A stretch of 64,000 nt of DNA from Cyanobacteria bacterium VAR_87_metabat_62 (GTDB lineage Bacteria; Cyanobacteriota; Cyanobacteriia; Cyanobacteriales; Microcoleaceae). Within the stretch, counting starts at the first letter, position 1. Each line of letters starts with the position of its first letter. Of this stretch, positions 45,187 to 51,437 are shown piece after piece. A program made the translations under genes and the position numbers. Under the pieces are notes generated by a model. It saw nothing but the letters and a program-made list of their open reading frames with translations, was not told the DNA's origin and ran no database searches. The DNA is taken from positions 4 through 64,003 of the forward strand of contig JANPMV010000001.1 in assembly GCA_031427135.1 (NCBI GenBank), written 5' to 3'.

Positions 45187-45260
45187 GGGGGTATAGCTCA
45201 ACCGGTCAGAGCAGTCGCCTGTCGAGCGAAAGGTTGCGAGTTCAACTCTCGTTACTCCCG
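45187..45260 (+). tRNA. tRNA-Asp(GTC)
   Basis: Acceptor GGGGGTA/TACTCCC, loop CTGTCGA, T-arm GCGAG-TTCAACT-CTCGT, G73. Confidence 0.85.
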
Positions 45261-45264
45261 TCAA

Positions 45265-45340
45265 AGTCCCGTAGGCAAATTGGTTTAAGCCGTCACCCTC
45301 TCTGGCGTGAAAATTACGAGTTCAAACCTCGTCGGGACTC
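45265..45340 (+). tRNA. tRNA-like, irregular anticodon arm (CTC, Glu-like)
   Basis: Acceptor AGTCCCG/CGGGACT and a good T-arm. The anticodon arm has one extra nt (TCACC-CTCTCTG-G[C]GTGA). Confidence 0.5.
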
Positions 45341-45343
45341 CCA

Positions 45344-45417
45344 GGTTAGATGGCCGAGTGGTTTAAGGCGTCGCTCTGCAAAAGCGATTTTCGTGAGTTC
45401 AAATCTCACTCTAACCT
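45344..45417 (+). tRNA. tRNA-Cys(GCA)
   Basis: Acceptor GGTTAGA/TCTAACC, loop CTGCAAA, U73. Confidence 0.8.
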
Positions 45418-45475
45418 TTGTTCCTATTAATTAATAGGAGCAATCTCAAATCTGAAACTTCAAATCAGATTATAT

Positions 45476-45571
45476 AGCAGCGTAGCTTAATGGTAAAGCC
45501 CCAAGTTCATGCCTTGGCAATTGCGAGTACCGCTTCGCGGAAGCAAGCTACAAGTCCCGCCACTGCTACCA
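45476..45571 (+). tRNA. tRNA(CAT) Met-type with an about 21-nt insert in the T-loop; CCA encoded
   Basis: Anticodon arm CCAAG-TTCATGC-CTTGG. T-stem GCGAG/CCCGC encloses 28 nt. The 3' end reads ...CACTGCT-A-CCA. Confidence 0.5.
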
Positions 45572-45574
45572 AAT

Positions 45575-45649
45575 ACAGGGATGATGTAACTGGCAACATC
45601 TCAGTCTCCAAAACTGATTTTCTGAGTTCAAATCTCAGTCCCTGTGCCA
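45575..45649 (+). tRNA. tRNA-Trp(CCA); CCA encoded
   Basis: Acceptor ACAGGGA/TCCCTGT (A1-U72), loop CTCCAAA, G73. Confidence 0.8.
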
Positions 45650-45655
45650 ATTTAT

Positions 45656-45732
45656 AGTGCTGTAGGCAAATGGTTTAAGCCGCTTGGTTTTCACCCAAGT
45701 GATTGCGGGTTCAACTCCCGTCAGCACTTCCA
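45656..45732 (+). tRNA. tRNA-Glu(TTC); CCA encoded
   Basis: Acceptor AGTGCTG/CAGCACT, arm CTTGG-TTTTCAC-CCAAG. Confidence 0.8.
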
Positions 45733-45740
45733 AAACTTCT

Positions 45741-45822
45741 GGGTTGGCCCTCCTACTGGCGTGGGTAGCTGTCTGTAAAACAGTAGCTTAAAGCGTTGCT
45801 GGTTCAATTCCAGCCCGACCCA
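45741..45822 (+). tRNA. tRNA-Tyr(GTA), long variable arm, irregular D-arm
   Basis: Acceptor GGGTTGG/CCGACCC, loop CTGTAAA, A73. Confidence 0.6.
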
Positions 45823-45962
45823 TTTGTAACTGTATTATGACTTACACAAAAAACCCGGTTTCTGAGAAAAATCTTGTATCTCTACGAGAGATATTTAGAT
45901 AGAAACCGGGTTTTTGACCCCCGTGGGTAAATCCTGTGTATTTCATATGCAGTTGCAATTTT

Positions 45963-46037
45963 GAGAATGAGTTGTAACTGGACAACAATTCAGTTTGCGT
46001 GACTGAACATTCGGGGGTTCAAATCCCTCCGTTCTCG
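45963..46037 (+). tRNA. tRNA-like (GCG, Arg-like), atypical loop TTGCGTG
   Basis: Acceptor GAGAATG/CGTTCTC, 6-bp anticodon stem TTCAGT/ACTGAA. Confidence 0.55.
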
Positions 46038-46041
46038 CTAT

Positions 46042-48926: not shown

Positions 48927-49760
48927 ATGCCTAAAAAATCTAAGTACATCAAAGAACTTTTAGAGCCAATCGTCAGGGAAAGCATTACCCTTGCTGAGGT
49001 GCTTCAAAAATTGGGTTTGGGAAAAACAGGAGGGAATCGTAGGAATATTAATTCGCAAATTAAAAAATTAGGAATTTGTACTCAACATTTTGTTGGGGCT
49101 TCTTGGGCTAAGGGACAAACTGCTAGTAGTAATCCTGCAATCTGGCGCAATCGAGCTAAGAATACATATCCTGATGAGGAGGTATTTGTAGAGTATTCAA
49201 CTTATAATGGTGGCCCTAAGTTGACTAAAAGATTAATTCAAAAAGGTTGGGATTATAAATGTAATGAATGCGGGATTGATCGGTGGAGAGATCAGCCCTT
49301 AGTTTTGCACCTAGATCACATCAATGGAGTTCACCATGACAATCGATTAGAAAATCTCAGGTTTTTATGTCCAAATTGTCATCAACAAACAGAAAATTGG
49401 GGTAACAAAAATCAAAGAGTAAAGCAGGCAATAGATAACCAAGTATTAGAGACACGCATTCTTCCAGAGAATGCGAGTATAAATGATGTTTCCAATGAAA
49501 AAGAAAAAATAAAAGTAAGAATGAAGAAATGTAGATCTCCAAGAATTAACTCCAGAAAAGTTGAGCGTCCTTCTAAAGAGGATTTACAAAACCTGGTTTG
49601 GGAAAAACCAACTACTCATATAGCTAGAGATTTTGGTGTTAGTGACAAAGCAGTAGAGAAATGGTGCAAAGCTTATGACATCGAAAAACCTGCTAGGGGT
49701 TACTGGGCAAAACAGACTCAAAATCATACAGGTATGCAAAGCCAAAATGAAAGTAGCTAA
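48927..49760 (+). CDS. HNH endonuclease (homing-endonuclease-like)
   Basis: HLDHINGVHHDNRLENLRFLCPNCH HNH motif. AT-rich and lies between tRNA genes. Confidence 0.85.
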   Translation: MPKKSKYIKELLEPIVRESITLAEVLQKLGLGKTGGNRRNINSQIKKLGICTQHFVGASWAKGQTASSNPAIWRNRAKNTYPDEEVFVEYSTYNGGPKLTKRLIQKGWDYKCNECGIDRWRDQPLVLHLDHINGVHHDNRLENLRFLCPNCHQQTENWGNKNQRVKQAIDNQVLETRILPENASINDVSNEKEKIKVRMKKCRSPRINSRKVERPSKEDLQNLVWEKPTTHIARDFGVSDKAVEKWCKAYDIEKPARGYWAKQTQNHTGMQSQNESS

Positions 49761-49861
49761 TTTGCAATTACCGAAATTTTAGTTCGACTCCTATAGATAT
49801 CCAATGAGAGTTAAGTAAACTGGTGTATCAACTTCAGACTGAATCATAGCATGATTAATAA

Positions 49862-49944
49862 GGAAGATGCCGCTAAACGGTTGGCAACTGGTCTTGAAAA
49901 CCAGGGTACAGGTAACTGTAAGGGTTCAATTCCTTCATCTTCCT
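49862..49944 (+). tRNA. tRNA-Ser(TGA), class II, U73
   Basis: Acceptor GGAAGAT/ATCTTCC, arm CTGGT-CTTGAAA-ACCAG, long variable arm. Confidence 0.75.
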
Positions 49945-49948
49945 TTTT

Positions 49949-50020
49949 CCACCAGAAGTCGAAAAGCGAGACACCGTGCTGATAACGCGGGGATAGGAGG
50001 GGCAGTACCTCTCTGGTGGA
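49949..50020 (+). tRNA. tRNA-like with Ile anticodon GAT, non-canonical D- and T-loops
   Basis: Acceptor CCACCAG/CTGGTGG, loop CTGATAA, T-loop GGCAGTA, D-loop without GG. Confidence 0.45.
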
Positions 50021-50071
50021 TCTATTGGTTTATAATAAGTCTAGATTTGCTAGCCATTCAACATAGAAGCC

Positions 50072-50290
50072 ATGAGCATTCAAGTTCTCAAATTAGAATT
50101 GATTCAGTGGATTTTGTTATTGAAGGATGTTCAACTTTTAAACGAAATCCAAAAACTCAAAGAAAAGTCACCTGAAAAGACTGCTGTCCTCAAGCCTCGT
50201 CAATTTGGCTGTGGCAAAGGAATTTTTACTTACGTTGCGGATGATTTTGATGAAACACCTCCAGGTTTTGAAGAATATATGTTGCCATGA
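50072..50290 (+). CDS. VapB/DUF2281-like antitoxin
   Basis: 72 aa. C-terminal GKGIFTYVADDFDETPPGFEEYM is typical of this antitoxin class. ATGA overlap with the PIN remnant. Confidence 0.6.
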   Translation: MSIQVLKLELIQWILLLKDVQLLNEIQKLKEKSPEKTAVLKPRQFGCGKGIFTYVADDFDETPPGFEEYMLP

Positions 50291-50370
50291 AATATCTAAT
50301 TGACACTCACATTCTAATTTGGTTTGTTGAGGGTAACACTCGGCTTGATGAAGATGTACGATCGTTGTAA
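50287..50370 (+). pseudogene. truncated PIN-domain (VapC) toxin remnant, 27 codons
   Basis: MKYLIDTHILIWFVEGNTRL... then a stop. Only the N-terminal PIN motif remains. Confidence 0.65.
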
Positions 50371-50409
50371 AATTGTTGTAATCTCAAATTACCAAAAGTA
50401 AGGTGAAAC

Positions 50410-50982
50410 ATGAGAAAACTAAAATATTACATAGCTTGCACCGTTGACGGGTTTATTGCTCGCGAAGATGGCTCGTTTGATTGTTTTCTGATGTCAGGAG
50501 AGCATTTTGCTGATTTGTTCGAGTTTTTTCCTGAGACTTTTCCGGCTCACGTTCAAAAGGCTTTAGGAATTCATCCAGAAAACAAGCAGTTTGACACTGT
50601 TTTGATGGGACGCAAAACCTATGAAGTAGGGCAAAAAGTTGGCTTGACTAATCCTTATCCCAGTTTGAAACAGTACGTGTTTTCGCGCAGTATGAAAACA
50701 AGTCTCGATGAAAATGTTGAACTTGTCTCAGAGAATGCTGTTGGATTGGTGAGGGAATTGAAGCAGGAAACGGGAAAAGATATCTGGCTGTGCGGCGGCA
50801 GCGATTTAGCGGCAACTGTTTTTTCCGAGATTGATGAAATGATTGTCAAGTTAAATCCGGTAGTTATTGGGGCGGGAATTCCGCTGTTTTCTGGAGCGGT
50901 ATCACCTACTAATTTGGAATTGTGCGATCGCAAAATCTATAGTAACGGTTTCCTGCTGCTGCATTATCGATTGCAGAAATGA
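50410..50982 (+). CDS. dihydrofolate-reductase-family protein (RibD C-terminal domain-like)
   Basis: 190 aa. KYYIACTVDGFIAREDGS...LMGRKTYE...IWLCGGSDL pattern. Confidence 0.75.
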   Translation: MRKLKYYIACTVDGFIAREDGSFDCFLMSGEHFADLFEFFPETFPAHVQKALGIHPENKQFDTVLMGRKTYEVGQKVGLTNPYPSLKQYVFSRSMKTSLDENVELVSENAVGLVRELKQETGKDIWLCGGSDLAATVFSEIDEMIVKLNPVVIGAGIPLFSGAVSPTNLELCDRKIYSNGFLLLHYRLQK

Positions 50983-51029
50983 GGTGTTTGTACGATCGCC
51001 TCAAATAGCATCAATTAAAAGTATGGCAG

Positions 51030-51112
51030 GGAAGCTGCTGCCGCAGGGACGGCGACTTGTCTTGAAAACAAGAGTGCAGTTAACTGTAGGGGTTCGATTC
51101 CTCCAGCTTCCG
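51030..51112 (+). tRNA. tRNA-Ser(TGA), class II, G73
   Basis: Acceptor GGAAGCT/AGCTTCC, arm CTTGT-CTTGAAA-ACAAG. Confidence 0.8.
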
Positions 51113-51124
51113 TTGAGATTTTAC

Positions 51125-51196
51125 GGGTGGTTAGCAAAGCGGTTATGCACCCGGCTTTTAACCGGTATCAGATAGGTTCAACTCCTATACCACCCA
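51125..51196 (+). tRNA. tRNA-Lys(TTT)
   Basis: Acceptor GGGTGGT/ACCACCC, loop CTTTTAA, A73. Confidence 0.85.
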
Positions 51197-51352
51197 CTCA
51201 ATCGATTTTAGATTTTAGATTTTAGATTGAGGGAGATGTGTGAGATTTTAGATTTTAGATTGAAGGGCATATTGTTGCATGAAAGCTGCTGCATTTATCT
51301 GCGTTCATCTGCGTTACCTGCAATTATCTGCGGTTGCAAAATCCCAAAATTT

Positions 51353-51437
51353 GGAAAGTGCGGCTGTGTGGACGGCAACTAATGTGGAATATTAGGGTGC
51401 AGCGAAATTTGTAGAGGTTCGACTCCTCCAATTTCCC
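51353..51437 (+). tRNA. tRNA-Ser(GGA)-like, class II
   Basis: Acceptor GGAAAGT/AATTTCC (one mismatch), arm CTAAT-GTGGAAT-ATTAG, T-loop TTCGACT. Confidence 0.6.

What the first reader, a model, noticed from the sequence alone, without database searches (positions are those of the whole stretch)
45187..51437. 31-member, single-strand tRNA gene array covering 18 amino-acid specificities
Thirty-one tRNA or tRNA-like genes lie in 6.3 kb, all on the + strand. They sit behind one strong promoter-like module (44945-44974), and a good intrinsic terminator closes the region (51627-51675). By hand folding the anticodons are Asp, Cys, Met x2, Trp, Glu, Tyr, Ser x4, Phe, Asn, Gln, Leu-type x4, Pro, Thr, Gly, Arg x3, Ala x3, Ile, Lys, plus aberrant members. 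His and Val are absent. Many members keep the expected identity elements. These include U73 in Cys and Gly, C1-G72/A73 in Pro, U1-A72/G73 in Gln, A1-U72/G73 in Trp, G3:U70/A73 in Ala and A73 in all Leu-type genes. That argues they are, or recently were, chargeable. Long tRNA arrays are known from a subset of filamentous cyanobacteria, from Firmicutes and from phages. They are accessory and their role is only partly understood. This array is richer in non-tRNA cargo than I would expect.
Basis: partly seen in the sequence, partly recalled or inferred. Interest (0 to 1): 0.75.

Follow-up and report, generated by a model that had tools for sequence, protein, structure and literature searches.

The report
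Stress-inducible tRNA array carrying a ribosome-mimic RNA
This is a real accessory tRNA gene array of a kind already known in filamentous cyanobacteria, but it also carries a conserved, apparently undescribed RNA that copies two pieces of the ribosome's factor-binding site and lies beside a hidden Ro60/Y-RNA-type RNA quality-control locus.

Summary
The array is real. Window 45187-51437 (+) holds 29 tool-supported tRNA or tRNA-like genes plus one hand candidate. That is fewer than the 31 claimed. They cover 17 anticodon specificities, and His and Val are absent.

It is a homologue of the cyanobacterial "L-array" or trn operon of Anabaena PCC 7120. The core gene order is shared, and so are the short class-I Leu-anticodon tRNAs. 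The promoter carries the footprinted TrcR operator TGTAGTAT over a TAGTAT -10 box.

The protein cargo belongs to families of the Anabaena TrcR translational-stress regulon and recurs in related arrays. It comprises a PARG-like TIGR02452 protein, an HNH endonuclease and a nearby GNAT.

The unexpected part is a ~210-nt structured RNA at 48270-48477. It combines a sarcin-ricin-loop copy with a copy of the 23S GTPase-associated centre (H43/44):
- It occurs in at least 119 cyanobacterial species genomes.
- It covaries strongly.
- It is absent from Rfam, and I found no paper describing it.

It shares a closing "frame" with tRNA-like RNAs, one of which lies at 56395-56510. In related genomes it usually lies next to a divergent Ro60 orthologue, which in the window is 57213-58646 (AF2 pLDDT 92; Foldseek top hits Ro60/Rsr).

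The array is a known kind. The embedded RNA looks like a new Y-RNA-like class.

The parts
44932..44974 (+). Promoter 1 with TrcR-type operator. It comprises TTGTATTAC (44932-40), the -35 box TTGACA (44945-50), TTGTAATAC (44954-62), and TGTAGTAT (44967-74) overlapping the -10 box TAGTAT.
   Evidence: The motif matches the footprinted TrcR site of the Anabaena trn promoter (PMC10272220) and the 9-nt repeats over the -10/TSS (PMC8421152).
45187..45260 (+). tRNA-Asp(GUC)
   Evidence: ARAGORN; Rfam 64.0 bits
45265..45340 (+). tRNA-like with an 8-nt anticodon loop (CUCU) and encoded CCA. It sits at the position of Glu(CUC) in Anabaena.
   Evidence: Rfam 45 bits
45344..45417 (+). tRNA-Cys(GCA), U73
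   Evidence: (67.0 bits)
45476..45568 (+). tRNA(CAU) with a ~20-nt insertion; A73-CCA
   Evidence: Rfam 39.2 bits; not called by ARAGORN
45575..45646 (+). tRNA-Trp(CCA), A1-U72, G73, encoded CCA
   Evidence: (56.4 bits)
45656..45729 (+). tRNA-Glu(UUC), encoded CCA
   Evidence: 65.9 bits
45741..45821 (+). tRNA-Tyr(GUA), class II, weak
   Evidence: Relaxed ARAGORN; 34.4 bits against the tRNA-Sec model only
45836..45937 (.). Small hairpin insertion (inverted AAACCGGGTTTTT repeats). It is absent from related arrays.
45963..46038 (+). tRNA-Arg(GCG)-like, probably degenerate
   Evidence: ARAGORN only; below Rfam E=1
46042..46128 (+). tRNA-Ser(GCU)
   Evidence: 61.2 bits
46133..46205 (+). tRNA-Phe(GAA)
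   Evidence: 65.8 bits
46212..46284 (+). tRNA-Asn(GUU), encoded CCA
   Evidence: 67.1 bits
46300..46376 (+). Degenerate tRNA-like remnant at the slot of Gln(CUG) in Anabaena
   Evidence: Read by eye only; no tool support
46381..46454 (+). tRNA-Gln(UUG), U1-A72, G73
   Evidence: (59.9 bits)
46484..46557 (+). Class-I (short variable loop) tRNA with Leu anticodon CAA; A73-CCA
   Evidence: (54.6 bits)
46584..46658 (+). Class-I tRNA with Leu anticodon UAA; A73
   Evidence: (54.3 bits)
46663..46736 (+). tRNA-Pro(UGG), C1-G72, A73
   Evidence: (66.9 bits)
46740..46815 (+). Class-I tRNA with Leu anticodon GAG, weak
   Evidence: ARAGORN only
46849..46922 (+). Class-I tRNA with Leu anticodon UAG; A73
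   Evidence: 60.8 bits
46938..47012 (+). tRNA(CAU), weak, encoded CCA
   Evidence: Relaxed ARAGORN only
47018..47089 (+). tRNA-Thr(UGU)
   Evidence: 56.0 bits
47151..47990 (+). Bacterial-type poly(ADP-ribose) glycohydrolase-like macrodomain protein (TIGR02452), with the GGG-X7-QEE signature
   Evidence: Pfam PF10021 8.8e-50; TIGR02452 4e-103; PDB 3SIG 1e-66. The same family as alr1372 in the TrcR regulon (PMC10272220). Present in 7 array loci.
48041..48111 (+). tRNA-Gly(UCC), U73
   Evidence: 63.3 bits
48123..48195 (+). tRNA-Arg(UCG)
   Evidence: 65.9 bits
48270..48477 (+). SRL-GAC RNA, a ~210-nt structured RNA. Closing helix P1 is UGCGUG/AUACGCA. The sarcin-ricin-loop copy AGUACGAGAGGA lies at 48303-48314. 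The 23S H43/H44 (GTPase-associated centre) copy lies at 48370-48425.
   Evidence: Rfam LSU hit 44-49 bits, with all pairs of the H43/44 fold standard. At least 119 genome loci. Covariation: 21/43 pairs compensatory, 0/500 shuffles. An unbiased metagenome sample keeps GTACGAGAGGA in 38/40.
48509..48582 (+). tRNA-Arg(UCU)
   Evidence: 57.5 bits
48589..48662 (+). tRNA-Ala(GGC), aberrant acceptor stem (bulged C); G3:U70/A73-CCA in that register
   Evidence: (42.7 bits)
48671..48744 (+). tRNA-Ala(CGC)-like paralogue with the same bulged acceptor stem
   Evidence: Rfam 39.4 bits
48753..48825 (+). tRNA-Ala(UGC), G3:U70, A73
   Evidence: 72.0 bits
48927..49760 (+). HNH homing-endonuclease-like protein with the C-terminal domain shared by array endonucleases
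   Evidence: Pfam HNH 5.6e-4; PADLOC HEase 8.5e-14; homologues in related arrays; HNH linkage described in PMC8421152
49861..49945 (+). tRNA-Ser(UGA) a, class II, aberrant
   Evidence: ARAGORN; 39.3 bits against the tRNA-Sec model only
50072..50370 (+). Toxin-antitoxin remnant. A 72-aa antitoxin-like ORF (50072-50290) overlaps a 27-aa stump of a PIN/VapC toxin (50287-50370).
   Evidence: A full-length 126-aa PIN homologue sits at the same place in L030.
50410..50982 (+). RibD_C/dihydrofolate-reductase-like protein
   Evidence: Pfam PF01872 5.8e-11; also in arrays L030 and L053
51030..51112 (+). tRNA-Ser(UGA) b, class II, aberrant
   Evidence: ARAGORN; 43.6 bits against the tRNA-Sec model
51125..51196 (+). 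tRNA-Lys(UUU)
   Evidence: 57.1 bits
51353..51437 (+). tRNA-Ser(GGA)-like, weak
   Evidence: ARAGORN only
51460..51603 (+). C-terminal 47 codons of an EF-Tu gene (remnant)
   Evidence: Sequence; tuf hit H23; a full-length EF-Tu paralogue lies inside array L058
51626..51675 (+). Intrinsic terminator hairpin plus U-tract
   Evidence: z = -5.97
55535..55563 (+). Promoter 2, also TrcR-type: TTGACA, then CTGTAGTAC and GCGTAGTAT over the -10 box TAGTAT
56395..56510 (+). Framed tRNA-like RNA (Y-RNA-like). It has the same P1/internal-loop/P2/UACAUAC frame as the SRL-GAC RNA around a tRNA-like body with a CUU anticodon. ARAGORN and Rfam call the body 'tRNA-Lys' (56417-56487).
   Evidence: (46.1 bits)
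57213..58646 (+). Divergent Ro60/Rsr orthologue (TROVE-like helical ring plus vWA domain with a complete MIDAS motif)
   Evidence: Profile vs PDB: Ro60 9NEN 2.9e-17, 1YVP 3e-13, Rsr 2NVO 1.3e-7. PF25045 vWA_Ro60 in 16/59 relatives. AF2 pLDDT 91.9. The top 12 Foldseek hits are all Ro60/Rsr/TROVE, TM 0.57-0.65.
60925..62470 (+). A 275-aa protein of unknown fold plus a ThiF-family protein. In other genomes this gene pair directly follows the stand-alone SRL-GAC RNA.
   Evidence: tblastn 59.6% identity, 2e-112; Pfam ThiF 1.1e-21; the pair is present in 79 and 60 of 119 loci respectively

Best explanation
The interval is a chromosomal member of the cyanobacterial long tRNA array family (the "L-array" or trn operon described in Anabaena PCC 7120), in a Microcoleus-like filamentous cyanobacterium.

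Proposed working, by homology with Anabaena:
1. In unstressed cells a TrcR-type ribbon-helix-helix repressor sits on the (T)GTAGTAT repeats that overlap the -10 box, and the array is silent.
2. When translation is impaired, repression is relieved.
3. One ~6.6-kb transcript runs from about 44980 to the hairpin at 51626-51663.
4. RNase P, RNase Z and other enzymes cut it into about 25 usable tRNAs. These keep their identity elements and supplement the housekeeping pool.
5. The same transcript expresses the embedded genes for a PARG-type ADP-ribose hydrolase, an HNH endonuclease and a DHFR-like protein.

The same transcript also releases a ~210-nt structured RNA that copies the sarcin-ricin loop and the L11/GTPase-associated centre of 23S rRNA. 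I propose that this RNA is a Y-RNA-like partner of the divergent Ro60 protein encoded 9 kb downstream, which sits behind a second TrcR-type promoter. Its conserved closing frame would bind Ro60. Its rRNA-like module would act as a mimic of the ribosomal factor-binding site, either as a tether or as a decoy.

Shown here: the tRNA genes, the homology and synteny, the operator sequence, the cargo families, the structure and spread of the RNA, and the Ro60 fold.

Inferred: the regulation, the processing, the charging, and any Ro60-RNA contact or mimic function.
For: Array identity:
- 22 members reach at least 39 bits in Rfam, and 25-27 are called by ARAGORN.
- blastn hits the Nostocales plasmid arrays, including NC_003273.
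- The Anabaena array shows the same order: Asp, Glu-like..., Glu, Tyr, Ser(GCU), Arg, Phe, Asn, Gln, Leu(CAA), Pro, Leu, Leu, Met, Thr, Gly, Arg(UCU), Ala. It also has the same 75-78-nt Leu-anticodon tRNAs.
- The closest arrays are in Microcoleus genomes with a conserved flank.

Regulation:
- TGTAGTAT over TAGTAT is the site that TrcR protects in the Anabaena trn promoter (PMC10272220, section 9).
- Tandem 9-nt repeats over the -10/TSS confer chloramphenicol induction (PMC8421152, section 22).
- The motif occurs once in the window, at 44967-74. A second promoter of the same build lies at 55535-63.

Cargo:
- TIGR02452, HNH and GNAT families are among the genes most strongly derepressed in the trcR deletion mutant (PMC10272220, Table 1).
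- PARG-like genes sit in 7 of the array loci I fetched.

SRL-GAC RNA.

Link to Ro60:
- The window protein has a Ro60 fold.
- A homologue lies within 8 kb of the RNA in 62 of 119 genome loci.
- The RNA's frame is shared with tRNA-like RNAs that sit next to that gene.
- Moorena members of the family hit the YrlA model's tRNA-like module at 36 bits.
- Stand-alone copies carry TrcR-type repeats over their -10 box.
Against: - No expression data exist for this organism.
- At least five members are degenerate: ARAGORN-only calls, the 8-nt anticodon loop, and the insertion-bearing CAU tRNA.
- A hairpin insertion at 45836-45937 could attenuate transcription inside the array.
- The array carries decayed genes (a VapC stump and an EF-Tu stub), so part of it is eroding.
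- The housekeeping tRNA set is outside the window, so 'supernumerary' is not shown here.
- For the RNA, the frame does not contain the GNCGAAN0-1G motif proposed for Rsr binding in YrlA RNAs. The YrlA model scores are below threshold.
- In the window the RNA is 9 kb from the Ro60 gene.
- Many copies sit directly upstream of an ORF, which also fits a cis-acting leader.
Confidence: 0.8

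Rival explanations
1. The array is the organism's main housekeeping tRNA operon, as in Firmicutes. It would be constitutively expressed rather than an accessory stress-induced set.
For: It has high density, a single strand, and a strong sigma70-like promoter. 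Many members have excellent covariance scores.
Against: - His, Val and Ile(GAU) are missing, and initiator status is unclear.
- The Leu tRNAs lack the long variable arm. Several members are aberrant.
- Cyanobacterial housekeeping tRNAs are dispersed (PMC8421152).
- The -10 box is overlapped by a repressor operator.
- An apparently ordinary tRNA-Lys(CUU) with its own promoter lies nearby.
Confidence: 0.03
2. The array is chiefly a mobile bank of spare or toxin-insensitive tRNAs, as proposed for phage and mycobacterial arrays. It would replace or out-compete tRNAs cut by anticodon nucleases such as VapC- or PrrC-type enzymes. Translational-stress control would be secondary.
For: - HNH homing endonuclease is linked to the array, and arrays spread by horizontal transfer (PMC8421152).
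- Mycobacterial arrays are called putative anti-defence systems (PMC12803027 abstract).
- RNA-repair and ADP-ribose-reversal genes travel with the arrays: tRNA_bind-RNA ligase, NADAR, KptA and PARG.
- Framed tRNA-like RNAs differ mainly in their anticodon.
- A VapBC remnant sits inside the array.
Against: - No phage genes flank the array.
- The SRL-GAC pattern is absent from IMG/VR.
- The locus and its flank are conserved within Microcoleus.
- PADLOC finds nothing except the HNH protein.
- This reading is compatible with the best explanation rather than exclusive of it.
Confidence: 0.1
3. The array is a decaying relic with no present function.
For: It contains degenerate members, a hairpin insertion, a VapC stump, an EF-Tu stub and a ~2-kb insertion after Ser(GGA).
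Against: - 22 members retain high covariance scores and their identity elements.
- Paralogues show compensatory changes.
- The promoter/operator is intact.
- The order is conserved across genera.
- The Anabaena homologue is inducible, and competition assays showed a difference between wild type and the trn deletion strain under chloramphenicol (PMC8421152).
Confidence: 0.05
4. (Embedded RNA) The SRL-GAC RNA works without Ro60. It would be a free decoy or sponge that soaks up agents or factors that recognise the ribosomal factor-binding site. Candidates are SRL-cleaving or depurinating toxins, RNA ADP-ribosyltransferases, thiopeptide-type antibiotics together with uL11, or translational GTPases.
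For: - The SRL core is kept in 38/40 unbiased homologues, while the flanking helices covary freely.
- A1067 and A1095 equivalents are present.
- Its neighbours are enzymes that reverse RNA damage or ADP-ribosylation.
- It is co-transcribed with spare tRNAs. One related array carries a complete EF-Tu gene.
Against: - No direct evidence exists for any ligand.
- The conserved frame shared with tRNA-like RNAs next to a Ro60 gene calls for a common protein partner.
Confidence: 0.2
5. (Embedded RNA) It is a cis-acting 5' leader. Like ribosomal-protein leaders, it would use rRNA mimicry to let a protein that normally binds the SRL/GAC control the gene downstream (the 275-aa protein, KptA, NADAR or RNA ligase).
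For: In stand-alone loci an ORF starts 7-200 nt after the RNA. Different downstream genes all belong to RNA-repair or ADP-ribose chemistry.
Against: - In at least 22 arrays, including this window, the RNA lies between tRNA genes with no ORF behind it.
- None of the downstream genes is a ribosomal protein.
- The same frame carries tRNA-like cargo.
Confidence: 0.12
6. (Embedded RNA) It is a fragment of a degraded 23S rRNA gene.
For: Rfam matches only LSU rRNA models.
Against: - The SRL copy precedes the GAC copy, and only ~55 nt separate them. In 23S rRNA the order is reversed and the distance is ~1.6 kb.
- Both lie inside non-rRNA helices that covary.
- The element is conserved across at least 119 species with its own promoter.
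Confidence: 0.01

Closest known systems
Anabaena/Nostoc sp. PCC 7120 trn operon, the cyanobacterial L-array (Santamaria-Gomez et al. 2021, PMC8421152; TrcR control, Wang et al. 2023, PMC10272220)
   Same: - A same-strand, dense array of tRNA genes with DNA homology and a shared core order.
- Short Leu-anticodon tRNAs, some members with encoded CCA, and aberrant members.
- A linked HNH endonuclease.
- A promoter with TGTAGTAT over a TAGTAT -10 box and tandem 9-nt repeats.
   Different: - It is chromosomal, at a locus conserved in Microcoleus, rather than on a plasmid.
- It lacks Val and His.
- It is interrupted by protein genes (PARG-like, HNH, DHFR-like, TA remnant, EF-Tu stub).
- It carries the SRL-GAC RNA, which the Anabaena array lacks (L007) and which neither paper mentions.
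Bacterial Y RNAs / YrlA with Ro60 (Rsr), for example the Salmonella rsr-yrlBA-rtcBA RNA-repair operon and the Deinococcus Rsr-Y RNA-PNPase complex (Chen et al. 2014, PMC4201824)
   Same: - Modular RNAs closed by a stem formed from the 5' and 3' ends, plus a module that mimics a translation RNA.
- They are encoded next to a Ro60 orthologue.
- They are co-regulated with RNA repair: RtcB is in the TrcR regulon, and RNA ligase, KptA and NADAR sit next to the RNA.
- Moorena family members have the permuted T-arm/closed-acceptor/D-arm layout and hit the YrlA model's tRNA-like part.
   Different: - The variable module here is a 23S rRNA mimic (SRL plus H42-44), not tRNA-like.
- Sibling RNAs carry a complete, non-permuted tRNA-like body with an anticodon arm.
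- The conserved frame motif (CGUGC-CCUAAC ... AACUU-GCACG, UACAUAC) differs from GNCGAAN0-1G.
- The Ro60 is so divergent that Pfam TROVE does not detect it.
- Control is by a TrcR-type operator rather than by RtcR/sigma54.
rRNA mimicry in ribosomal-protein mRNA leaders (for example the L10(L12)4 and L1 leaders)
   Same: A short RNA reproduces the sequence and fold of an rRNA protein-binding site. Here that site is the H43/H44 fold, which Rfam's LSU models recognise.
   Different: - It does not lie upstream of ribosomal-protein genes.
- It combines two distant rRNA sites in one RNA.
- It also occurs as a stand-alone unit between tRNA genes.
tRNA arrays of phages, mycobacterial plasmids and Firmicutes
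   Same: Many tRNA genes lie head to tail, are often linked to homing endonucleases, and are accessory.
   Different: There is no sequence homology to these outside cyanobacteria in my searches. This array has TrcR-type regulation and a different cargo.

Membership tests
Cyanobacterial L-array (trn operon) | A long run (more than 20) of same-strand tRNA genes at short spacing | tested here: met
   29 tool-supported units lie in 6.25 kb, all on the + strand.
Cyanobacterial L-array (trn operon) | Common ancestry: sequence similarity and shared core gene order with described arrays | tested here: met
   blastn hits 13 Nostoc and 3 Tolypothrix plasmids, including NC_003273. Order comparison with L007.
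Cyanobacterial L-array (trn operon) | [quoted passage not shown] | tested here: met
   44932-44974 carries TGTAGTAT over TAGTAT. This is met by sequence only; binding was not tested.
Cyanobacterial L-array (trn operon) | Silent in standard growth and induced by translational stress; tRNAs processed and aminoacylated | not testable with these tools
   This needs northern blots or tRNA-seq. It is known only for Anabaena (PMC8421152).
Cyanobacterial L-array (trn operon) | Supernumerary to a complete dispersed housekeeping tRNA set | not testable with these tools
   Only 64 kb of the genome is available. The one apparently ordinary tRNA gene seen is Lys-CUU at 53515.
Y RNA / YrlA (Rfam RF02553), for the SRL-GAC RNA and the framed tRNA-like RNA | Encoded next to a Ro60/Rsr orthologue | tested here: met
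   The Ro60 fold of window 57213-58646 is shown. The framed tRNA-like RNA lies 700 nt upstream of it. A homologue lies within 8 kb of the SRL-GAC RNA in 62/119 loci. In the window the distance is 9 kb.
Y RNA / YrlA (Rfam RF02553) | A match to the YrlA covariance model at its gathering score of 69 bits | tested here: not met
   The window gives only chance-level hits of 23-27 bits over tRNA pairs. Moorena framed RNAs score 36.3 and 34.4 bits over model positions 24-84 only.
Y RNA / YrlA (Rfam RF02553) | A 5' motif GNCGAAN0-1G (GGUCCGA-like) thought to contact Ro60 | tested here: not met
   The frame's conserved 5' strand is CGUGC-CCUAAC. The motif is defined in PMC4201824, section 6.
Y RNA / YrlA (Rfam RF02553) | A variable module that mimics tRNA (T and D arms) | tested here: inconclusive
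   This is met for the framed tRNA-like siblings. It is not met for the SRL-GAC RNA, whose module mimics rRNA.
Y RNA / YrlA (Rfam RF02553) | Physical binding to Ro60 | not testable with these tools
   This needs RIP/CLIP or an in vitro binding assay.
Ro60/Rsr (TROVE + vWA), for window 57213-58646 | A ring of helical repeats followed by a vWA domain with a MIDAS motif; detectable homology to solved Ro60 structures | tested here: met
   The profile matches 9NEN at 2.9e-17 and 9L5Y/9KOP at 3e-14 over profile positions 24-394. Foldseek full-length hits to 1YVP, 2NVO and 9NEN have TM 0.59-0.65. DxSxS..T..D is invariant. Pfam TROVE itself gives no hit.
Bacterial-type PARG (PF10021 / TIGR02452), for window 47151-47990 | A full-length match and the catalytic signature GGG-X6-8-QEE | tested here: met
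   The sequence reads PGGGFLKGAQAQEESL.
Ribosomal-protein leader (cis rRNA mimic) | Located in the 5' UTR of a ribosomal-protein operon | tested here: not met
   The downstream features are tRNA genes, the 275-aa protein, KptA, NADAR, RNA ligase and others.

The most novel reading that the evidence does not exclude
The RNA at 48270-48477 founds an undescribed class of Ro60-associated, Y-like RNAs. Its variable module is a miniature of the ribosome's translation-factor binding site: the sarcin-ricin loop plus the uL11/GTPase-associated centre. With its tRNA-like siblings, whose anticodons vary between near-identical copies, it would form a TrcR-controlled set of 'translation-RNA look-alikes'. 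A divergent cyanobacterial Ro60 would use these as tethers, gates or baits during damage to the translation apparatus. They would act alongside spare tRNAs, an accessory EF-Tu, RNA ligases and enzymes that reverse RNA ADP-ribosylation.
Probability: 0.4. Interest if true: 0.9.

Novelty: new variant of a known kind. Interest (0 to 1): 0.78.

Why it matters
As a tRNA array, this is one more member of a described family. Its use is comparative. It shows that Oscillatoriales arrays bundle into one operon the families that are scattered TrcR regulon genes in Anabaena (PARG-like, HNH, GNAT).

The embedded RNA is the part that matters. A natural RNA that joins the SRL and the GTPase-associated centre, the two rRNA elements that contact elongation factors, has not been described in anything I could search.

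Its linkage to three things would extend the Y-RNA concept from tRNA mimicry to rRNA mimicry:
- a cryptic Ro60 orthologue;
- RNA-repair and ADP-ribose-reversal enzymes;
- the translational-stress operator.

This gives a concrete, testable handle on two open questions. The first is what bacterial Ro60 RNPs do. The second is what the cyanobacterial translational-stress regulon actually senses or repairs.

It also flags that many 'tRNA' calls near these loci are framed tRNA-like RNAs rather than ordinary tRNA genes. These include calls labelled Pyl-CTA, SeC-TCA and odd Lys, Phe and Leu.

Tried and rejected
- **Fold of the 276-aa partner protein.** AF2 on a shallow alignment gave pLDDT 46. I did not use the model. 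Sequence search of the PDB found nothing. Pfam, NCBIfam and PADLOC found nothing.
- **YrlA membership.** The model scores are below threshold and the Rsr motif is absent. I therefore describe the RNAs as Y-RNA-like in architecture and do not file them as YrlA.
- **Phage origin.** The SRL-GAC pattern gives no hit in IMG/VR.
- **Defence-system annotation of the cargo.** PADLOC matches only the HNH protein.
- **Integron attC-like reading of the frame** (RYYYAAC/GTTRRRY). I rejected this because the 3' partner sequence is AACUU-GCACG, which is not the complement.
- **Simple 23S pseudogene.** Rejected on the order and spacing of the two copies and on covariation.
- **Internal sigma70 promoter just upstream of the RNA in the window.** The candidate hexamers have the wrong spacing (11 or 20 nt), so I make no claim.
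- **My first all-against-all covariation script**. It was too permissive to be informative, and I replaced it with the count of structure pairs.
- **Possible extra H42-like helix** (GGGGA/UCCCU against GGAAGG/CCUUCU between sequence types). I saw it only by eye and did not count it.
- **Invariance of the motifs in the first genome scan.** Conservation of AGTACGAGAGGA and of the H43 loop in that scan is by construction of the search pattern. Only the second, motif-free scan says anything about their conservation.
- **Literature.** Six full-text searches found no description of the RNA. Subscription-only papers are not covered, so prior description cannot be excluded.

Full report

Yes, with a smaller count.
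- ARAGORN at default settings tRNA genes between 45186 and 51437, all on the + strand.
- A relaxed run adds Tyr(GTA) and a second CAT tRNA.
- Rfam's tRNA model scores 22 members between 39 and 72 bits, against a gathering score of 29. Two of these were missed by ARAGORN: 45476-45568 (CAT, with an insertion) and 48671-48743 (CGC).
- Three class-II members match only the tRNA-Sec model, below its threshold.
- Four members are ARAGORN-only.
- The union is 29. A degenerate tRNA-like stretch at 46300-46376, seen only by eye, makes 30.
- There are 17 anticodon specificities. His and Val are missing, and no tool supports Ile.
- The promoter is confirmed at 44945-44974.
- The terminator hairpin is confirmed at 51626-51663, z = -5.97.

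**2. What is the array?**

The frequent GCGATCGC sites, visible on reading the sequence, and the closest relatives (names) place the window in a Microcoleus-like filamentous cyanobacterium. Those relatives are Microcoleus sp. herbarium19, ARI1-B5 and others, at 80-95% identity, with the upstream polysaccharide-deacetylase flank conserved.

blastn against plasmids hits the arrays of 13 Nostoc and 3 Tolypothrix plasmids, including pCC7120delta. ARAGORN on that Anabaena locus shows the same core order. It also shows the same 75-78-nt tRNAs with Leu anticodons and no long variable arm. These short Leu tRNAs are therefore a family trait, not a local oddity.

This is the "L-array" or trn operon family. 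In Anabaena the array is one operon. It is silent in standard culture and is induced 100-1000-fold by ribosome-targeting antibiotics. Of its 26 tRNAs, 23 are aminoacylated in vivo. Competition assays showed a difference between wild type and the trn deletion strain under chloramphenicol (PMC8421152).

**3. Regulation.**

TrcR, a ribbon-helix-helix repressor, protects TGTAGTAT over the TAGTAT -10 box of the Anabaena trn promoter (PMC10272220). Tandem 9-nt repeats over the -10/TSS are sufficient for stress control (PMC8421152).

The window promoter reads agTTGTATTACcccccTTGACAgtcTTGTAATACgtaaTGTAGTATaaatg. It has the same -10 box, the same octamer (unique in the 64 kb) and further repeats.

A second promoter of the same build lies at 55535-55563 (cccccTTGACActcCTGTAGTACgagcGTAGTAT), after a bidirectional terminator. 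TrcR and its sites are reported as conserved across cyanobacteria (PMC10272220). Control by a TrcR orthologue is therefore the best inference, but it rests on sequence alone.

**4. Protein cargo.**

| Feature | Coordinates | Evidence |
|---|---|---|
| Bacterial-type PARG, GGG-X7-QEE signature | 47151-47990 | PF10021 8.8e-50; TIGR02452 4e-103; PDB 3SIG 1e-66 |
| HNH homing-endonuclease-like protein | 48927-49760 | |
| RibD_C/DHFR-like protein | 50410-50982 | |
| Antitoxin-like ORF plus 27-codon PIN/VapC stump | 50072-50370 | the PIN gene is full length in L030 |
| Last 47 codons of an EF-Tu gene | 51460-51603 | |

Array L058 carries a complete EF-Tu paralogue, so the window copy is a remnant.

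The genes derepressed more than 8-fold in the Anabaena trcR deletion mutant include a TIGR02452 protein, two GNATs, two HNH endonucleases, RtcB and RsgA. The cargo therefore consists of regulon families that have been physically gathered into the operon.

In the 22 related arrays I fetched, I found:
- PARG-like genes in 6, plus the window;
- a tRNA_bind-RNA ligase in 4;
- HNH-type genes in about 9;
- DHFR-like genes in 2, plus the window;
- GNAT, NADAR, a DEDD exonuclease and retropepsin-like genes.

Rich cargo is thus normal for this branch of the family.

Relative to L030, window 51438-53430 is an insertion. It comprises the EF-Tu stub, the terminator and a 422-aa orphan ORF.

**5. The gap between Arg(UCG) and Arg(UCU).**

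An E-value Rfam scan matched 48370-48425 to LSU rRNA. The match is the complete H43/H44 fold of the GTPase-associated centre, with every pair standard. Sixty-five nucleotides upstream lies AGUACGAGAGGAA, the sarcin-ricin loop.

The SRL copy comes first and the two are adjacent. In 23S rRNA the order is reversed and they are 1.6 kb apart. This is therefore not an rRNA fragment.

An 80%-identical copy sits on a Dolichospermum plasmid with no tRNAs nearby. Nearly all are cyanobacterial, including Nostoc, Microcoleus, Moorena, Calothrix, Leptolyngbya and Scytonema.

On 31 representatives below 93% identity, the RNA folds into:
- a closing helix P1;
- a second helix P2;
- the SRL hairpin;
- a hairpin P3;
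- a helix P4 that encloses the GAC copy.

Covariation figures:

| Measure | Observed | Control |
|---|---|---|
| Cells paired | 95.6% | not applicable |
| Pairs with compensatory change | 21 of 43 | 11.4 ± 1.5 in shuffles (0 of 500 reach it); 3-11 in slid controls |

The first scan required the SRL and H43 motifs, so their invariance there means nothing. I therefore repeated the search in metagenomes with a pattern that avoids both motifs. I recovered homologues with nhmmer. Among 40 unique sequences, the full 12-mer is intact in 36 and GUACGAGAGGA in 38. The H43 loop is more variable.

No copy occurs in IMG/VR. Rfam 15 has no family for it. Six full-text searches, and the two trn/TrcR papers, do not mention it.

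**6. Two contexts.**

In at least 22 arrays the RNA occupies the same slot...Gly-Val-Arg | RNA | (Arg)-Ala-His-Ser....

In Nostocales, Leptolyngbya and other lineages it stands alone, directly behind tandem TGTAGTAT/TTGTATTAT repeats that overlap a -10 box. That is a TrcR-type promoter.

The next gene downstream is usually a conserved 275-277-aa protein with no recognisable domain, followed by a ThiF-family protein. In other lineages the next gene is one of the following:
- KptA/Tpt1 RNA 2'-phosphotransferase;
- NADAR;
- a tRNA_bind-RNA ligase;
- an EEP nuclease/phosphatase;
- a methyltransferase.

The recurring theme is RNA repair and NAD/ADP-ribose chemistry.

**7. The frame and Ro60.**

The odd 'tRNAs' that ARAGORN reported a few kb upstream of stand-alone copies were labelled Pyl-CTA, SeC-TCA, Phe, Leu-TAA, Ser-TGA and Lys. 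They turn out to be tRNA-like bodies held in the same frame as the SRL-GAC RNA.
- The frame is P1 (…CGUGC/GCACG…), an internal loop CCCUAAC/AACUU, a covarying P2 and an invariant UACAUAC.
- In these RNAs, UACAUAC is the 5' acceptor strand.
- P1 shows CGUGC/GCACG, CGCGC/GCGCG and CGUAC/GUACG variants.
- In otherwise near-identical Nostoc copies, the anticodon triplet is the most variable site: GAA, UUU, UGA, UAA, GAU, UCA, CUA.
- Moorena members carry a permuted T-arm/closed-acceptor/D-arm body and hit the tRNA-like part of Rfam's YrlA (Y RNA-like) model at 36 and 34 bits, below the threshold of 69.

The window has one such RNA at 56395-56510. This is the 'tRNA-Lys(CTT)' at 56417-56487, and it folds as predicted. 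It lies downstream of promoter 2.

The next large ORF, 57213-58646, is 70-75% identical to a protein present in 62 of the 119 loci. Pfam sees at most a vWA domain in this family.
- A profile of 59 diverse relatives matches Ro60 (9NEN, 2.9e-17), phage and bacterial TROVE proteins (3e-14, nearly full length), Xenopus Ro60 and Deinococcus Rsr.
- 16 of the 59 relatives hit PF25045 vWA_Ro60.
- The AF2 model has pLDDT 91.9.
- Its 12 best Foldseek matches in the PDB are all Ro60/Rsr/TROVE structures, aligned over their full length with TM 0.57-0.65.

The window therefore contains a cryptic Ro60 orthologue with a Y-RNA-like gene beside it. The array-borne SRL-GAC RNA shares that RNA's frame.

The homologue of the 275-aa protein and its ThiF partner are also in the window, at 60925-62470. 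The whole stand-alone locus is thus present next to the array. Only the SRL-GAC RNA itself has a different address.

**8. How it most likely works.**

For the array, the Anabaena mechanism applies by homology: derepression of a TrcR-type operator under translational stress, one long transcript, processing, charging, and supplementation of the tRNA pool. The embedded enzymes are co-expressed. My confidence is about 0.8.

For the RNA, the architecture parallels bacterial Y RNAs. These have an end-to-end stem that binds Ro60 and a module that mimics a translation RNA and recruits or occludes a partner (PMC4201824). I therefore favour a Ro60-associated RNA whose module imitates the ribosomal factor-binding site.
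- What it binds is open. Candidates are uL11 or the stalk, elongation factors including the array-borne EF-Tu, and toxins or drugs directed at the SRL or GAC.
- Nothing here shows a contact.
- The frame lacks the proposed Rsr-contact motif of YrlA RNAs, so I do not file it as a YrlA member.
- A Ro60-independent decoy and a cis-acting leader remain live alternatives.

**9. Known or new.**

The combination found here is not described in anything I could search. It consists of an L-array carrying an rRNA-mimic RNA, next to a divergent Ro60 with framed tRNA-like RNAs, all behind TrcR-type promoters. I rate the whole as a new variant of known kinds (the L-array and the Ro60/Y-RNA system). The rRNA-mimic module is the truly unusual element.

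Noticed in passing
window 48270-48477 (+): A ~210-nt conserved structured RNA lies between tRNA-Arg(UCG) and tRNA-Arg(UCU). It combines a sarcin-ricin-loop copy (48303-48314) with a 23S H43/H44 GTPase-associated-centre copy (48370-48425). It occurs in at least 119 cyanobacterial species genomes, is not in Rfam, and I found no paper on it.
   Followed up: yes
window 56395-56510 (+): The 'tRNA-Lys(CTT)' called at 56417-56487 is a tRNA-like body enclosed in the same P1/loop/P2/UACAUAC frame as the SRL-GAC RNA. Its leader and trailer are paired over about 14 bp, so it is probably not processed to a normal tRNA. It is a Y-RNA-like gene.
   Followed up: yes
window 57213-58646 (+): A divergent Ro60/Rsr orthologue that Pfam TROVE does not recognise. 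AF2 gives pLDDT 91.9, and the top 12 Foldseek hits are all Ro60/Rsr/TROVE. It is 70-75% identical across cyanobacterial orders, and the family has 978 cluster representatives.
   Followed up: yes
window 55535-55563 (+): A second TrcR-type promoter (TTGACA, then CTGTAGTAC and GCGTAGTAT over the TAGTAT -10 box). It sits in front of two 66-codon ORFs (the second conserved in about 35 loci), the framed tRNA-like RNA and the Ro60 gene.
   Followed up: partly
L010, L011, L017, L024, L025, L045, L068, L097 and other Nostoc loci (for example L045 1525-1660 and 3150-3262): Framed tRNA-like RNAs with near-identical backbones differ mainly in the anticodon triplet: GAA, UUU, UGA, UAA, GAU, UCA, CUA. ARAGORN labels some of them Pyl(CTA) or SeC(TCA). 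The L045 copy has a TTGACA...TGTAGTATaaaTGTAGTAT promoter.
   Followed up: partly
window 60925-62470 (+); L008 2671-4352: A conserved gene pair: a 275-aa protein with no recognisable domain plus a ThiF-family (E1/TcdA-like) protein. In 79 and 60 of 119 loci respectively, it directly follows the stand-alone SRL-GAC RNA. AF2 on the 275-aa family failed (pLDDT 46).
   Followed up: partly
window 51460-51603 (+); L058: The last 47 codons of an EF-Tu gene, with its terminator, lie directly after the last array tRNA. Array L058 carries a full-length EF-Tu paralogue (409 aa) inside the array. L053 shares the stub.
   Followed up: partly
window 50072-50370 (+): A toxin-antitoxin remnant inside the array. 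An intact 72-aa antitoxin-like ORF overlaps, by ATGA, a PIN/VapC gene truncated to 27 codons. The toxin is full length (126 aa) in L030.
   Followed up: partly
window 45265-45340 (+): A tRNA-like gene with an 8-nt anticodon loop (CUCU) sits at the slot of Glu(CUC) in Anabaena. It is a possible +1 frameshift suppressor. Deletion of trcR in Anabaena is reported to raise frameshifting and stop-codon read-through (PMC10272220).
   Followed up: no
window 48589-48662 and 48671-48744 (+): Two tandem Ala-type paralogues (GGC and CGC). Their acceptor stems need a bulged C in the 3' strand to give G3:U70/A73-CCA. A U5-A68 to C5-G68 exchange between them supports that fold.
   Followed up: partly
window 45836-45937 and 55424-55501: Two copies of a small hairpin element built on inverted AAACCGGGTTTTT repeats (4 matches in the window, 0.2 expected by chance). 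The first is an insertion inside the array that relatives lack, and it could act as an internal attenuator. The second is a bidirectional terminator.
   Followed up: partly
window 51902-53170 (+): A 422-aa ORF with a hydrophobic N-terminus has no hit in Pfam, NCBIfam or PADLOC. It has no homologue in the related loci. It lies within a ~2-kb insertion relative to L030.
   Followed up: partly
window 53515-53588 (+): tRNA-Lys(CUU) scores 68 bits. It has its own TTGAAT-17-TATGCT promoter and a terminator, so it is probably an ordinary housekeeping gene that happens to lie between the array and the Ro60 locus.
   Followed up: partly
window 56240-56345: A cluster of long palindromic repeats (GGAGACGGCAGTGCCGTGTCCCTAC and its complement). 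It produced spurious microRNA hits in Rfam.
   Followed up: no
L023 (labelled Acidobacteriota MAG) and L058 (labelled Actinomycetota MAG): Both contigs carry typical cyanobacterial versions of the locus. L058 has a 30-tRNA array with GCGATCGC sites. These are probably mis-binned cyanobacterial contigs rather than spread of the RNA to other phyla.
   Followed up: no
L070 2342-2476 and L075 1816-1950: A third kind of cargo (~100 nt, neither tRNA-like nor SRL-GAC) sits in the same frame. The frame may therefore be a general display scaffold.
   Followed up: no
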